Part shown: one piece after another, positions 15,106-20,607 of the stretch | Layout: every line of letters begins with the position of its first letter | Position numbering within the stretch: the first letter of the stretch is position 1 | Origin: a virus | Taxonomy: Duplodnaviria > Caudoviricetes | Reading direction: 5' to 3' (one strand) | Virus record (IMG/VR): IMGVR_UViG_3300049182_000044 | Location: 64,001 to 128,000 of that record | DNA length: 64,000 nucleotides | Translations under genes and position numbers: made by a program | The notes under the pieces: generated by a model | Databases searched by the model: none | What the model saw: the letters and a program-made list of their open reading frames with translations, nothing else | Told to the model about the DNA's origin: nothing

Positions 15106-15708
15106 ATGCTTAAATGGCTAGATAAGATCCTTGGACGGAATAACGAGGAAGGTTCACTGAAAAGTATCACGTTCGATCCAGTTGAATTGATTCAGTTCCG
15201 CGTTGATCGTCGTGTGTTGACAGGCGATCCTGAAGTGACAGTCTACGTCCCGCAATATCGTACTAGGGTCTTTTACGAGTCTAACACACGCCTCAAGGTA
15301 GCCGAAGGTGGATACTTCAGGCGTGCGGTGTTGACCTCTCAACCACCTGAAAACAAGTGGACACCTTGGCAGGACTTCCAAGCGACAGATGATTGCGGTT
15401 GCCCGCTGCATTTCTCGCTCACTGCATACAGTGCAACGCGCACGGTGAAGACCGAAAACTGTAAAAACGTGGTACAGGCGTTGCGGCCAATTCGCATCAT
15501 CGAAACAGAAGGTTCGATGGGTATGGATAAGAACACCTGGGTCGGGAACATCTTGCGCAACGAAACACGTAAGGTGTACTGCGGCAGCGGTGACGGCGTG
15601 GAAGAAGAGTTCTATGTCGTGCGTACCCTTGGTGGCATGAAAGAGATGTGGGTGGCTGTCTCCGCTACTACTCGCGCCGAAGACGGTGTGATCGAGTATC
15701 GGTATTAG
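15106..15708 (+). CDS. Hypothetical protein (start MLKWLDK)
   Basis: A-rich leader before ATG 15106; the upstream extension lies in the structured region. Confidence 0.65.
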   Translation: MLKWLDKILGRNNEEGSLKSITFDPVELIQFRVDRRVLTGDPEVTVYVPQYRTRVFYESNTRLKVAEGGYFRRAVLTSQPPENKWTPWQDFQATDDCGCPLHFSLTAYSATRTVKTENCKNVVQALRPIRIIETEGSMGMDKNTWVGNILRNETRKVYCGSGDGVEEEFYVVRTLGGMKEMWVAVSATTRAEDGVIEYRY

Positions 15709-15747: not shown

Positions 15748-15823
15748 GGGGCGTTAACTCAGTTGGTAGAGTAGCGGACTCTTAATCCGTTTGTCGTAAG
15801 TTCGATCCTTACACGCCCTACCA
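15748..15823 (+). tRNA. tRNA-Lys(CTT)
   Basis: 76-nt cloverleaf, GCGGA-CT-CTT-AA-TCCGT anticodon arm, TTCGATC T loop, encoded CCA. Confidence 0.95.
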
Positions 15824-15881
15824 AAGTTTCCATAGTAGTGCAGATGCGCGAAAGCGAGTTCTTACTTCTGCATTACTCACC

Positions 15882-15957
15882 GGGTCGTTAGCTCAGTCGG
15901 TAGAGCAGCGGACTTTTAATCCGTTGGTCGCGTGTTCGAGTCACGCACGGCCTACCA
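15882..15957 (+). tRNA. tRNA-Lys(TTT)
   Basis: 76-nt cloverleaf, GCGGA-CT-TTT-AA-TCCGT, encoded CCA. Confidence 0.95.
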
Positions 15958-16111
15958 AGTTTGTCGTAGTAAAGAGTTGTAACTGCCATGTGGGTGGGTA
16001 CCTGCATGTTGTCGTAAGAATGGCCAAAAAGCCGGACCTCAATTTGTGCGAGTCGAAAGGCTCTCACCAGTGTAGACAGTCCTTACAGGGGATCGCAGTT
16101 AGCTGTTACGT

Positions 16112-16187
16112 GGGGCGTTAGCTCAGTTGGGAGAGCAGCGAACTTTTAATCCGTTGGTCGCTGGTTCAAACCCAGCACGCCCTACCA
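16112..16187 (+). tRNA. tRNA-Lys(TTT), variant with A30:C40 mismatch
   Basis: 76-nt cloverleaf, GCGAA-CT-TTT-AA-TCCGT, TTCAAAC T loop, encoded CCA. Confidence 0.85.
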
Positions 16188-18689: not shown

Positions 18690-19181
18690 ATGGGAGCAGC
18701 AGTAATTCAGCTGAAGTGCGCACGTTGCAAAGCGAAGTTTGAAAAGAAACTAGCTGAGTACACGTATCAATTGCGCAAGGCAGGCGTTTTAGACAAGCCA
18801 TTCTTTTGCAGCAGGGCATGCGGTCAAGCGTATTCAGGCGAGACGTTTCAAGCGTTCACCGATATTCGCGCAATCGCTAAAAGCCTCCGCAATCGAGAGT
18901 GGCCTTGATATGAGAAGTTAGACCGTTATCTAAAATCAACGGGGCTTACGTACCGATTCGAGTTCTTCTTCAAGAAGCACCGATTCGTGTACGACTTGGC
19001 GATAAAGGAACTGCGGTTGATATTCGAGTTCGATGAAGCGTATCACTACGATGAAACCGTCAGGCTTGTAGACAGAGCGAAGGACAAGCTCGCGAAGTCG
19101 AAAGGCTACACTGTGATTCGTGTGCCTTGTTCCAACGGTGCGGTTCTGTCACCGAAACTGATAAAGAAGCATTTGAAGTAG
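18690..19181 (+). pseudogene. Zn-finger plus Vsr/DUF559-like endonuclease with one in-frame TGA (18906-08)
   Basis: CARC...FFCSRAC N terminus; the same frame continues past TGA into YEKLD...FEFFF...YDLAIKELRLIFEFDEAYHY...RAKDKLAKSKGYTVIRV. Confidence 0.7.
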
Positions 19182-19189
19182 TACAGAAT

Positions 19190-19580
19190 TTATGGTTGTG
19201 TGCGTAGCGTAATCTACGCGAGACGTTTGCGTGAAGGCATGGCGGACGGGAGTTCGATTCTCCCCACCTCCACCACCAGCACTTTGAACACCCGGTGATG
19301 GCCGGGAGTTTGACCATGTAGGGTAACGGCCCCATAGCAGCCGCTACAGGACCAGTTGCGATACAACTGCAAAGCGCTGTTGATGGGGGTGACCTGGTTT
19401 CGACGGCGTGAGATAGCAAGAACTACAACTCAGCAGGCGATCGCTGACTCTTCGGAGTGAATCGAAGCAAAAATAGTAAATGCAAACGACTCGCATTTCC
19501 TGCAAGCTGCAAACGCCTAATTAAGCGTTTCACTTCAGGCTAAGTGACTACGGGGTCTGTTGACATAGCGCTACGGCGCG
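19190..19580 (+). ncRNA. ssrA: Circularly permuted (two-piece) tmRNA
   Basis: Acceptor piece ends GGAC-GGGAG-TTCGATT-CTCCC-CACCTCC-A-CCA (19275); coding piece starts GGGGGTG (19385), G3:U70 present; tag GCA AAC GAC...TAA at 19482-19520 = ANDSHFLQAANA; outer boundaries approximate. Confidence 0.9.
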
Positions 19581-19589
19581 CCGTCTTCG

Positions 19590-20035
19590 TGTACGTAGTT
19601 AGTCCGGCCACTCCACCTTTCGCCGATAATGACGCGACTGCGCGTGGGTGTCTTAGTCAGCGCGTAAGCGCACCGAAGCCGGACTACCCAGTTTCAAACC
19701 TCCAAGGTCAGAGAGCACTACACAGTGAGTTCGGTCTAAACTTTAACCATTTAGTCACCGAGAGACGATTTCCGTTATAGCAATCTGGATCGGACAACAG
19801 CCTGTGCAGCCAAAGGAGGGCCCAACGTAAAACGTTCTTCATCGAGCGTTTTACGTTGGTGACGGCAAAGCCGTTAAGGTGCGGACATAGAGCTATTGCA
19901 GCTTCAGCGTGGGTACGAACACTAATCGCATGGAGGAACCCCACCGGCGATGAAGTCGTAGGATGTGAAAGCCCGCTACGCTGTCACCAACATTCTCAAA
20001 TCGCGACCTAAGGTGGTCCCGATCATTCAACTTTA
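19590..20035 (+). ncRNA. Candidate large structured ncRNA, copy 2 (boundaries approximate)
   Basis: TAGTCCGGC/GCCGGACTA helix, 16-bp hairpin CCAACGTAAAACGTTC/GAGCGTTTTACGTTGG, core shared with copy 1. Confidence 0.6.
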
Positions 20036-20055
20036 ATCCATTGAAAGGATTTATC

Positions 20056-20607
20056 ATGAACTCTGCAACACAATTCCCCACCTCGTCTTCTCTTCTCGAA
20101 AAAGCAGCACACTACGCGACAACATTGTTCGATGCGGATAATCTTAAGTTCGATGCGCCGATCTTCACCGATCAGTACGTATCCTTTCCCATGACACACA
20201 GCCTCAACATCGACGGCGACTTCTTTATCAGGGCGCAAAGCGTTGGTGTAACATTCAAAGGTGAGGACGTACGGCTGTTCTATCTACTGCAGGATATGGT
20301 CAAGCGCCATCACCTGCATTTCAGGGTTCAGCACGAAGGTAAATGGGAATACTTTAACCCGCACTTGGCTGGTGAAGGTCAGTTCTCGATGAAGAACCCT
20401 TGCACGTTCTATCTTGCGGGTATTGCAAGCGGAAATCTCAAGGGCTGGTCGGACATTCCTATCAGCCGTGACCCTGCAACATTCGATGACCGCGCAAAGT
20501 TCCTCGCGGTCTTGCTGTATCGTGAATGGGTGCGTCAGATGATGCCCATCATTAAGATGTATCAGTGGTTCCGTGCAAACGACTTACTTGCACCTATCGT
20601 CAAATAA
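20056..20607 (+). CDS. Hypothetical protein
   Basis: GAAAGGA RBS before ATG 20056. Confidence 0.7.
   Translation: MNSATQFPTSSSLLEKAAHYATTLFDADNLKFDAPIFTDQYVSFPMTHSLNIDGDFFIRAQSVGVTFKGEDVRLFYLLQDMVKRHHLHFRVQHEGKWEYFNPHLAGEGQFSMKNPCTFYLAGIASGNLKGWSDIPISRDPATFDDRAKFLAVLLYREWVRQMMPIIKMYQWFRANDLLAPIVK

What the first reader, a model, noticed from the sequence alone, without database searches (positions are those of the whole stretch)
19190..19580. Phage-encoded circularly permuted (two-piece) tmRNA
Seen: the 3' acceptor half (T arm, CACCTCC-A-CCA at 19275) lies upstream of the 5' half (GGGGGTG at 19385), giving a perfect acceptor with G3:U70. The 109-nt intervening segment is closed by CAGCACTTTG/CAAAGCGCTG and has its own hairpins. 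Helix 2 pairings link the pieces (GCAAG/TTTGC, TACAAC/GTTGTG). No second CCA end occurs downstream. Known: permuted tmRNA is characteristic of alphaproteobacteria, some cyanobacteria and a betaproteobacterial lineage, and permuted genes are missed by default one-piece searches. Inference: an unusual phage acquisition or an independent permutation.
Basis: partly seen in the sequence, partly recalled or inferred. Interest (0 to 1): 0.78.

Follow-up and report, generated by a model that had tools for sequence, protein, structure and literature searches.

The report
Jumbo-phage two-piece tmRNA gene
A 281-kb soil phage carries a genuine rearranged ("two-piece") gene for tmRNA, the RNA that frees stalled ribosomes. 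Such phage genes are already known, but this one belongs to a subtype I otherwise found only as a spare copy in soil Oxalobacteraceae bacteria, and its tag lacks the usual Ala-Ala degradation ending.

Summary
ARAGORN calls a permuted tmRNA at 19183-19611 (tag ANDSHFLQAANA), and Rfam tmRNA_permuted scores 98.5 bits against a cut-off of 47. The acceptor stem with G3:U70, the T arm, the encoded CCA, the 109-nt stem-closed spacer and the helix 2 pairings are all present. No conventional 3' end lies downstream.

Phage two-piece tmRNAs are already published (PMC9004378), this scan has met many on other DNA, and I found more than 100 in IMG/VR. It is not an independent permutation: it nests in the beta-type clade and shares that family's spacer stem and conserved TGAT before G1.

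Two things are new:
- The gene misses all three clade-specific Rfam cut-offs (beta 71 against 84).
- It is the only viral gene in my set with a covarying hairpin insertion that I otherwise saw only in accessory chromosomal two-piece tmRNAs of Noviherbaspirillum and Herminiimonas-type bacteria. That hints at the host.

The tag ends Asn-Ala rather than Ala-Ala. Thirteen unrelated AT-rich viral tmRNAs and one bacterial accessory copy also end in -ANA.

The phage has no SmpB and no integrase. The gene most likely acts in host-dependent ribosome rescue with weakened ClpXP targeting. Expression and processing could not be tested.

The parts
19194..19275 (+). Acceptor piece (minimum extent). It runs from the helix 2d strand to the encoded CCA. 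The true 5' end is unknown.
   Evidence: ARAGORN; Rfam; anatomy.
19194..19200 (+). Helix 2d, acceptor-piece strand GGTTGTG. It pairs with 19424-19430.
   Evidence: compensatory variants occur in relatives (TGTTGT/GCAACA, TGCTGT/GCAGCA, AATCGT/ACGATT, GGTTGT/ACAACT).
19202..19219 (+). Local hairpin GCGTAG-CGTAAT-CTACGC inserted in the acceptor piece.
   Evidence: the hairpin covaries with those in L138, L136, L201, L125, L221 and L222. It is absent at this position from 65 other permuted genes.
19226..19230 (+). Helix 2b strand TTTGC (tentative). It would pair with GCAAG at 19416-19420.
   Evidence: Seen in the sequence. It matches the helix 2b position of the RF04321 alignment. Covariation did not confirm it.
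19238..19244 (+). Helix 2a, acceptor-piece strand CATGGCG. It pairs with 19404-19410, with one G.G mismatch.
   Evidence: 25-28 of 28 sequences are canonical at every position, with many compensatory changes.
19248..19264 (+). T arm (GGGAG / TTCGATT / CTCCC).
   Evidence: 28 of 28 sequences are canonical at all five pairs.
19265..19275 (+). Acceptor 3' strand CACCTCC, discriminator A, and encoded CCA. This is the mature 3' end of the acceptor piece.
19276..19384 (+). Intervening segment (109 nt), stem-closed and structured, with no gene inside. TGAT occupies -4..-1 before G1.
   Evidence: z = -2.86; no plausible ORF; closing stem of at least 6 bp in 83 of 85 family spacers; TGAT in 104 of 131 genes.
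19385..19404 (+). Acceptor 5' strand GGGGGTG followed by the D-loop analogue ACCTGGTTTCGAC. This is the start of the coding piece.
   Evidence: The 20-mer is identical in the Oxalobacteraceae accessory genes.
19404..19430 (+). Coding-piece strands of helix 2a (19404-19410), helix 2b (19416-19420, tentative) and helix 2d (19424-19430).
19430..19464 (+). Pseudoknot 1 region. Stem 1 is 19430-19434 / 19443-19447. An inserted CTC-TTCG-GAG hairpin lies at 19448-19457. Candidate stem 2 is CGAT 19438-19441 / ATCG 19461-19464.
   Evidence: Stem 1 is supported by covariation. Stem 2 and the inserted hairpin are read from the sequence only.
19482..19520 (+). Tag reading frame: resume codon GCA, peptide ANDSHFLQAANA, stop TAA.
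   Evidence: ARAGORN; Rfam alignment; U(-5)A(-4) precede the resume codon.
19511..19530 (+). Helix 5 (AAACGC / GCGTTT), with the stop codon in its 8-nt loop.
   Evidence: Read from the sequence. This is the usual tmRNA arrangement by established knowledge.
19531..19559 (+). Candidate pseudoknot 2 (CACTT/AAGTG and CAGGC/GTCTG). The 3' end of the coding piece is undetermined; ARAGORN ends at 19611 and the beta model at 19565.
   Evidence: Read from the sequence only. No intrinsic terminator lies on the + strand.
15748..16187 (+). Context: three tRNA-Lys genes (CTT, TTT, TTT). These are the only tRNAs in the whole phage.
15458..15465 (+). Context: nearest upstream ACTGTAAA element, a candidate phage promoter for the RNA island.
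   Evidence: 12 copies in the window, all on the + strand, against 1.55 expected.

Best explanation
This is an intact, circularly permuted ssrA gene of the betaproteobacterial (beta) type, carried by a virulent-looking jumbo myovirus from soil.

Most likely mechanism:
1. It is transcribed as one precursor, possibly as part of the tRNA-Lys RNA island.
2. Host tRNA-processing enzymes cut 5' of G19385 and trim to the encoded CCA at 19275. The structured 109-nt spacer is discarded.
3. The acceptor piece and the coding piece stay together through the acceptor stem and helices 2a, 2b and 2d.
4. Host AlaRS charges the RNA through G3:U70 and A73.
5. Host SmpB and EF-Tu deliver it to ribosomes stalled on broken mRNAs. 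The phage has no SmpB of its own.
6. Translation resumes at GCA 19482 and adds ANDSHFLQAANA.

The tag ends Asn-Ala instead of Ala-Ala. I infer that the phage copy favours ribosome recycling and gives weak or altered ClpXP targeting of the tagged products.

The gene shares a derived hairpin insertion with accessory chromosomal two-piece tmRNAs of Oxalobacteraceae-type bacteria. This points to gene exchange with that group, which is also the likely host clade.

Shown here: the gene's identity, anatomy and family relations, and the absence of SmpB and of an integrase. Inferred: transcription, processing, charging, the effect of the tag, and the host.
For: - Identity: ARAGORN calls a permuted tmRNA. 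RF04321 scores 98.5 bits against a cut-off of 47.
- Conserved structure: acceptor stem, T arm, helix 2a and PK1 stem 1 are canonical in 25-28 of 28 relatives, with compensatory changes. Helix 2d covaries.
- Spacer: the closing stem and the TGAT before G1 are family-wide.
- No alternative 3' end lies downstream.
- Placement: the beta model is the best of the three clade models (71.2 against 34.9 and 32.8 bits). The gene nests with primary beta ssrA and viral beta-type genes (support 0.87-0.90).
- Hairpin-insertion class: only the window's gene plus L125, L136, L138, L201, L221 and L222 belong to it.
- Those bacteria also have a normal one-piece ssrA.
- Phage genome: no SmpB, no tyrosine integrase, only 3 tRNA-Lys genes plus this tmRNA. 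The source is a soil metagenome.
- Tag: the Ala-Ala-COO- end is the main ClpXP determinant, and changing the penultimate Ala raises KM (PMC7652416). The -ANA end recurs in 13 unique viral genes, with synonymous codon changes in the Leu and Ala codons, and in L201.
- Mechanism by analogy: two-piece maturation by tRNA-processing enzymes is the established model (PMC11915505).
Against: - There are no transcript data, so the two pieces, their ends and even expression are unverified.
- No promoter or terminator was found next to the gene, and its 3' end is undefined.
- No close orthologue exists. The best relatives are about 70% identical and the phage has no relatives in IMG/VR. Purifying selection on this particular copy therefore cannot be shown.
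- Helix 2a has a G.G mismatch, and helix 2b is unconfirmed.
- The beta model falls below its cut-off (71.2 against 84).
- The tree rests on about 170 aligned columns. It pairs the window's gene with one viral sequence (L097) rather than with the Oxalobacteraceae copies, so the hairpin-based affinity and the tree do not fully agree.
- The ClpX inference comes from E. coli enzymology, not from the unknown host.
Confidence: 0.75

Rival explanations
1. A captured but functionally decaying copy. The phage picked up a permuted ssrA from a host or from another phage, and it is drifting. The odd tag ending, the helix 2a mismatch and the sub-threshold beta score would be signs of decay.
For: - Beta model 71.2 bits against a cut-off of 84.
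- G.G mismatch in helix 2a.
- Non-canonical tag end.
- No orthologues with which to show selection.
- No adjacent promoter or terminator.
Against: - Every functionally critical element is intact: a 7-bp acceptor stem with G3:U70, A73, encoded CCA, T loop, D-loop analogue, U-5/A-4, an open tag frame, and the stop codon in the helix 5 loop.
- The general model scores 98.5 bits, within the range of bona fide genes (81-135 bits).
- The -ANA ending recurs in independent lineages with synonymous codon variation. That argues for selection, not decay.
Confidence: 0.12
2. A decoy or inhibitor. The RNA mainly titrates host SmpB, AlaRS or SspB to shut down host trans-translation, as proposed for the TLD-only RNA of mycobacteriophage DS6A. 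Tagging would not be its purpose.
For: - The phage lacks SmpB, so its RNA must compete for the host protein.
- A TLD-like molecule inhibits tmRNA in E. coli (PMC4131195; PMC11915505).
- The tag keeps the N-terminal AND motif but lacks the Ala-Ala end.
Against: - The complete mRNA-like domain is kept: resume context, a 12-codon frame and helix 5.
- The tag peptide is conserved at the amino-acid level across diverged viral genes.
- A pure decoy needs none of these features.
Confidence: 0.08
3. An independent, phage-specific permutation event, or an attachment-site remnant (a fragment of ssrA kept as attP).
For: - tmRNA genes are frequent integration sites (PMC4383910 abstract).
- L135 shows a one-piece tmRNA joined to a phage-type coding piece.
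- All three clade-specific models are below their cut-offs.
Against: - The phage has no tyrosine integrase.
- Both halves are complete.
- The gene nests in the beta-type clade.
- It shares that family's spacer stem, TGAT and helix 2 arrangement.
- It shares a specific hairpin insertion with cellular copies.
Confidence: 0.03
4. An assembly artefact: host DNA misjoined into a viral contig.
For: - The record is a metagenome assembly.
- The only run holding the stretch in full is probably its own source.
Against: - The gene lies 83 kb into a 281-kb contig.
- Phage genes lie on both sides: helicases, tail sheath and tail fibres.
- The G+C content is uniform.
- It sits inside an island of phage tRNA genes.
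- No bacterial genome searched holds a near-identical copy.
Confidence: 0.02

Closest known systems
Phage-encoded two-piece tmRNAs of aquatic myophages (OM43 phage Melnitz, pelagimyophages, cyanophages; Buchholz et al. 2022, PMC9004378)
   Same: A permuted ssrA gene carried by a large virulent myovirus without SmpB or an integrase. The presumed role is to maintain translation during infection.
   Different: - Melnitz-type genes are alpha-type and some carry a glutamine riboswitch. This gene is beta-like and no riboswitch was detected.
- It comes from soil, not from water.
- Its tag ends Asn-Ala.
Betaproteobacterial two-piece tmRNA (Rfam RF01850; Sharkady and Williams 2004, cited from PMC9004378; the paper itself is not held)
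   Same: - Gene order, stem-closed spacer, helices 2a and 2d, PK1 stem 1 and an AND-type tag start are shared.
- The beta model is the best-scoring clade model, and the gene nests with primary beta ssrA in the tree.
   Different: - It scores 71.2 bits, against 169-296 bits for primary beta ssrA, and is below the cut-off of 84.
- It has an extra hairpin in the acceptor piece and an extra hairpin inside PK1.
- The spacer is 109 nt, against 24-42 nt in the three primary genes.
- The tag is not -(L/I)AA.
Accessory chromosomal permuted tmRNAs of Noviherbaspirillum and Herminiimonas-type Burkholderiales (found here: L125, L136, L138, L162, L201, L221, L222)
   Same: - The first 20 nt of the coding piece are identical.
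- The acceptor-piece architecture is the same, with the covarying hairpin insertion.
- The PK1 stem is similar.
- Beta-model scores are low in both (84-91 bits).
- Tag ends are non-canonical. L201's last 12 residues, ANDDCFLSVANA, match the window's tag at 8 of 12 positions.
   Different: - Those copies are chromosomal, sit among ordinary genes and accompany a primary one-piece ssrA.
- Their tags are mostly longer (21-30 residues as called by ARAGORN).
- Overall identity to the window's gene is only about 65%.
Caulobacter two-piece tmRNA (Keiler, Shapiro and Williams 2000, cited from PMC9004378 and PMC11915505)
   Same: It is the experimentally shown model for how a permuted ssrA precursor is cut into an acceptor piece and a coding piece that act together.
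   Different: It belongs to the alpha type. The alpha model gives only 32.8 bits here, against a cut-off of 50.
One-piece tmRNAs of mycobacteriophages (Bxz1 group) and Bacillus phage G, and the TLD-only RNA of DS6A (PMC4131195)
   Same: These are ssrA-derived RNAs carried by phages.
   Different: They have standard, non-permuted gene order. DS6A lacks a tag frame.

Membership tests
tmRNA (SsrA) in general | tRNA-Ala-like domain: 7-bp acceptor stem with G3:U70, discriminator A, CCA end, T arm with a TPsiC-type loop, and a D-loop analogue | tested here: met
   All pairs are canonical. G3:U70 is invariant in 28 of 28 relatives. The T loop is TTCGATT.
tmRNA (SsrA) in general | mRNA-like domain: a resume codon (usually GCN) after a U/A-rich leader, a short open tag frame, and a stop codon in the helix 5 loop | tested here: met
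   GCA lies at 19482 after TAAAT, followed by 12 codons and TAA at 19518 in the loop of AAACGC/GCGTTT.
tmRNA (SsrA) in general | Tag ends in a hydrophobic-Ala-Ala ClpXP degron | tested here: not met
   The tag ends Ala-Asn-Ala. All permuted genes recovered by the 24-mer scan of viral contigs end in (L/I/V/M)AA. This is a typical feature, not a strictly defining one.
tmRNA (SsrA) in general | Works with SmpB; alanylated by AlaRS; active in trans-translation | not testable with these tools
   No SmpB gene is present in the phage, so it would depend on the host. No biochemical data exist.
Permuted (two-piece) tmRNA, Rfam RF04321 | Score at or above the gathering threshold | tested here: met
   98.5 bits against 47, covering the full model 1-213.
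Permuted (two-piece) tmRNA, Rfam RF04321 | Gene order is acceptor piece, then intervening segment, then coding piece, with no conventional 3' end downstream | tested here: met
Permuted (two-piece) tmRNA, Rfam RF04321 | The precursor is cleaved into two mature RNAs held together by base pairing | not testable with these tools
   No RNA run is listed for this DNA. The inter-piece helices are supported by covariation.
Beta-type two-piece tmRNA, Rfam RF01850 | Score at or above the gathering threshold (84 bits) | tested here: not met
   71.2 bits over the full-length model. Primary beta genes score 169-296 bits.
Beta-type two-piece tmRNA, Rfam RF01850 | Groups phylogenetically with betaproteobacterial permuted ssrA | tested here: met
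   It falls in a clade with L204-L206 and viral beta-type genes, with support 0.87-0.90. The alignment is short, so resolution is modest.
Alpha-type (RF01849) and cyanobacterial-type (RF01851) two-piece tmRNA | Score at or above the gathering threshold (50 and 70 bits) | tested here: not met
   32.8 and 34.9 bits, with partial model coverage.

The most novel reading that the evidence does not exclude
Phage-borne and accessory bacterial two-piece tmRNAs whose tags look like a canonical AND..(F/Y)..AA tag plus a two-residue extension may form a functional class. Examples are -NA here, in 13 unrelated AT-rich viral genes and in L201, and -YA in L220. On this reading the class rescues ribosomes while deliberately masking the Ala-Ala-COO- ClpXP degron. 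The phage, or the cell under some condition, would then recycle ribosomes without committing the tagged proteins to ClpXP, or would route them to another fate.
Probability: 0.25. Interest if true: 0.6.

Novelty: new member of a known kind. Interest (0 to 1): 0.38.

Why it matters
The headline, a phage with a two-piece tmRNA, is not new. The gene should simply be annotated as ssrA (permuted form).

Two by-products are worth a specialist's attention.

1. The window's gene links a soil jumbo phage to a little-noticed set of accessory two-piece tmRNAs. These sit beside a normal one-piece ssrA in Oxalobacteraceae-type genomes. The link gives a host lead for an orphan phage. It also raises the question of what a second tmRNA with a different tag does in a cell.
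2. Tags ending in -ANA recur in unrelated phage tmRNAs. This suggests that phages tune what happens to rescued polypeptides as well as the supply of rescue capacity. The idea can be tested with simple reporter degradation assays.

The position of the gene, in an island with three tRNA-Lys genes that are the phage's only tRNAs, fits the idea of a translation-maintenance module. I did not test that idea.

Tried and rejected
- Expression and processing: no RNA holder is listed for window 19100-19700. Only two DNA runs were listed, one of them probably the source.
- Promoter and terminator scan of 18800-20100: nothing on the + strand near the gene.
- Close relatives of the phage: megablast against isolated phages found none. 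The Dda-helicase scan of IMG/VR found none.
- Nearest isolated phages by tail sheath (PaBG, NCTB, Lu11, HRDY3): none has a permuted tmRNA.
- blastn of the gene against isolated phages: only 36-nt T-arm matches. AANA-type and ALAA-type viral genes are likewise absent from isolates.
- Exact tag-region 23-mer in IMG/VR: no hit.
- MFE co-folding of the two pieces gave unstable, end-dependent structures and cannot represent pseudoknots, so I did not use it as evidence.
- MAFFT misaligned the 5' part of the acceptor piece. The column counts for helices 2b and 2d and for the hairpin are therefore uninformative. I replaced them with the motif-anchored analysis. Helix 2b remains unconfirmed.
- A small gene in the spacer, as earlier scan reports found in other phage tmRNAs: rejected here. 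The only ATG frame inside the spacer is 7 codons (read), and the longer GTG/TTG frames that cross it run into the mature pieces.
- L135 as a prophage junction: no integrase in the 4.6 kb held. Left unresolved.
- Sharkady and Williams 2004 (PMC516066) is not held. A literature search for the LLAANA tag found nothing.

Full report
**What is there.** The window is bases 64001-128000 of a 281,566-bp IMG/VR virus record that CheckV rates as complete. PHROG and tblastn results show a contractile-tailed jumbo phage. It has helicases, a tail sheath and tail fibres. Its sheath is 44-49% identical to those of Pseudomonas phages PaBG, Lu11 and HRDY3 and of phage NCTB. ARAGORN reports a permuted tmRNA at 19183-19611 on the + strand with tag ANDSHFLQAANA. 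Rfam's general permuted model RF04321 scores 98.5 bits against a gathering score of 47. The whole phage genome holds only this tmRNA and three tRNA-Lys genes. It has no SmpB and no tyrosine integrase. The only run that holds the stretch in full is a soil metagenome, probably the source.

**Anatomy.**
- T arm: 19248-19264.
- Acceptor 3' strand CACCTCC 19265-19271, A73 at 19272, encoded CCA at 19273-19275.
- A 109-nt intervening segment, 19276-19384.
- Acceptor 5' strand GGGGGTG 19385-19391, giving 7 of 7 pairs with G3:U70.
- D-loop analogue to 19404.
- Helix 2a: 19404-19410 with 19238-19244, with one G.G mismatch.
- Helix 2b: 19416-19420 with 19226-19230.
- Helix 2d: 19424-19430 with 19194-19200.
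- PK1 stem 1: 19430-19434 with 19443-19447.
- Resume codon GCA at 19482, after U(-5)A(-4).
- Twelve codons, then stop TAA at 19518-19520 in the 8-nt loop of helix 5 (19511-19516 with 19525-19530).

The spacer is closed by a 9-pair stem with one A.C mismatch. It folds better than all 200 shuffles (z = -2.86). It holds no plausible gene: the only ATG frame inside it is 7 codons, and the longer GTG/TTG frames that cross it run into the mature pieces. Within 3.1 kb downstream there is no T-loop and no sequence able to serve as a conventional acceptor 3' end.

**Comparative support.** ARAGORN calls a permuted tmRNA in nearly all of them, with ANDxxFALAA-type tags and spacers of 28-208 nt. On a 28-sequence alignment of beta-type genes (A1), four elements are canonical in 25-28 of 28 sequences at essentially every pair, with many compensatory changes. 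These are the acceptor stem, the T arm, helix 2a and PK1 stem 1.

MAFFT misaligned the 5' part of the acceptor piece, so I tested helix 2d by motif anchoring. It covaries as TGTTGT/GCAACA, TGCTGT/GCAGCA, AATCGT/ACGATT, and GGTTGT/ACAACT in the window. The spacer closing stem is at least 6 bp in 83 of 85 distinct spacers. TGAT occupies -4..-1 before G1 in 104 of 131 genes, the window's included. Helix 2b can form in the window, but I could not confirm it.

**Which kind of permuted tmRNA.** The clade-specific models give beta 71.2 bits (cut-off 84, full-length match), cyano 34.9 (cut-off 70) and alpha 32.8 (cut-off 50). Primary beta-type ssrA genes sampled from the order around Noviherbaspirillum score 169-296 bits. 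In a FastTree tree of acceptor piece plus coding piece up to the first tag codons, the window's gene falls in a clade with three primary beta genes and 14 viral genes (support 0.87). That clade lies inside a larger beta-type clade (support 0.90). The alignment is short, so I use the tree only to reject an origin outside the beta lineage. The best pairwise identity to any collected gene is about 71%.

**A derived character and a host lead.** The window's acceptor piece carries an extra hairpin (19202-19219) directly 3' of the helix 2d strand. The same architecture appears in permuted tmRNAs of Noviherbaspirillum (L136, L201), Herminiimonas (L125), a proteobacterial MAG (L138) and two further genomes of that family (L221, L222). 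It reads GAATT-TGTTGTGTGCG-hairpin-...GTGAAGGC...GGAC, and the hairpin covaries.

Across about 100 distinct genes, the 2d strand lies 61-64 nt from the CCA end in 65 genes. It lies 82-89 nt away, followed by a stable hairpin, only in the window and these cellular copies. They also share an identical first 20 nt of the coding piece.

Those bacteria all have a normal one-piece ssrA as well, scoring 210-217 bits with tags ANDxxYALAA. The permuted copies lie among ordinary chromosomal genes. They are therefore accessory tmRNAs. Together with the soil origin, this suggests gene exchange with Oxalobacteraceae-type Burkholderiales, and possibly that the host belongs to this group. That is an inference. 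The nearest isolated phage relatives lack the gene, and the phage has no relatives in IMG/VR.

**The tag.** The Ala-Ala-COO- dipeptide is the most important ClpXP determinant, and changing the penultimate or last alanine raises KM (PMC7652416). The window's tag ends Ala-Asn-Ala. A pattern scan found 16 more viral contigs (13 unique genes) with tags ANDSQFLLAANA, ANDDTFLLAANA or ANDDTYLLAANA. These genes are:
- all permuted;
- AT-rich;
- built on different acceptor stems that keep G3:U70;
- variously closer to the alpha or the beta model;
- far from the window's gene in the tree.

Their Leu and Ala codons vary synonymously. L201 ends ...ANDDCFLSVANA and L220 ends ...KVAAYA. The ending therefore recurs in separate lineages, which fits selection on the peptide. 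I read these tags as a canonical-looking tag plus a two-residue extension that would weaken ClpX recognition. This is a hypothesis. The pattern search fixed the last four codons, so their constancy is not evidence. I found no description of such tags in the searchable literature.

**Mechanism and rivals.** The best explanation is a functional, host-dependent trans-translation RNA matured into two pieces, as established for permuted ssrA (PMC11915505). It would supply extra ribosome-rescue capacity during infection, with altered proteolytic targeting. The rivals are a decaying capture, a decoy for SmpB, an att-site remnant or independent permutation, and an assembly artefact. Each is weighed under rival explanations. 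The intact mRNA-like domain, the absence of an integrase, the family-wide shared features and the phage genes on both sides argue against them.

**Novelty.** Phage two-piece tmRNAs are published: 53 of 133 unique phage tmRNAs in Buchholz et al. 2022. This scan has reported many on other DNA. The finding is a new, divergent member of a known kind. The accessory-copy link and the recurrent -ANA tags are the parts that go beyond what I found described.

**Limits.** There are no transcript data. The 3' end of the coding piece is undefined, and no promoter or terminator lies beside the gene. The nearest ACTGTAAA element, a + strand-only motif with 12 copies against 1.6 expected, is at 15458 before the tRNA-Lys cluster. 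This is compatible with co-transcription of the RNA island but does not show it.

Noticed in passing
L135:1803-2456: In a UBP17 MAG contig, a complete one-piece tmRNA (tag ADEDYALAA; RF00023 136.8 bits) ends in the viral-type T arm and acceptor. It is followed directly by an 88-nt stem-closed spacer and an AANA-type coding piece (tag ANDDTYLLAANA). The DNA downstream resembles that of viral contigs L175, L177 and L187. It could be a prophage junction whose attP lies inside the phage's own permuted tmRNA, or a phage carrying one and a half tmRNAs.
   Followed up: partly
L125, L136, L138, L162, L201, L220-L222 (loci in bacterial genomes): Noviherbaspirillum and Herminiimonas-type genomes carry one or two accessory permuted tmRNAs beside a normal one-piece ssrA. 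These copies lie in ordinary chromosomal context and have long or non-canonical tags (for example ...FLSVANA, ...LVQVYG, ...KVAAYA). 12 of 151 sampled genomes of the family have a match to the permuted model. Some of those matches are primary beta-type genes, and three weak ones lie on one-piece genes.
   Followed up: partly
L173-L188 (IMG/VR contigs): There is a family of 13 unique AT-rich viral permuted tmRNAs with tags ANDxx(F/Y)LLAANA. The coding piece ends about 60 nt after the stop codon at a clear intrinsic terminator. ARAGORN misses most of them, none is in isolated phages, and several lie beside large tRNA arrays.
   Followed up: partly
window 15748-16187: The only tRNA genes in the whole 281-kb phage are three tRNA-Lys genes (one CTT, two TTT), 3 kb upstream of the tmRNA. 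A single-specificity tRNA set suggests a response to Lys-anticodon nucleases. I did not test this.
   Followed up: no
window, 12 sites (4894, 14384, 14596, 15458, 24386, 25878, 27512, 28001, 37661, 40258, 47612, 54860): ACTGTAAA occurs 12 times, always on the + strand, against 1.55 expected by chance. It is probably a phage-specific promoter element. None lies between 15465 and 24386.
   Followed up: partly
window 18690-19181: A small DUF559 (Vsr-like endonuclease fold) ORF ends 2 nt before ARAGORN's tmRNA start. A single in-frame stop separates it from an upstream Zn-ribbon-like 72-codon ORF. It may be a split or degenerate homing-type endonuclease beside the RNA gene.
   Followed up: partly
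window 19596-19700: Directly after the tmRNA lies another G+C-rich structured stretch, closed by TAGTCCGGC / GCCGGACTA. Another first-stage note describes it as one of two paralogous large RNAs. It obscures where the coding piece ends.
   Followed up: no
L006-L124 (IMG/VR contigs): More than 100 viral contigs, including ones of 110-170 kb, carry beta-type permuted tmRNAs with an identical 24-nt T arm and acceptor end and canonical ANDxxFALAA tags. blastn finds essentially none of this family in isolated phages.
   Followed up: partly
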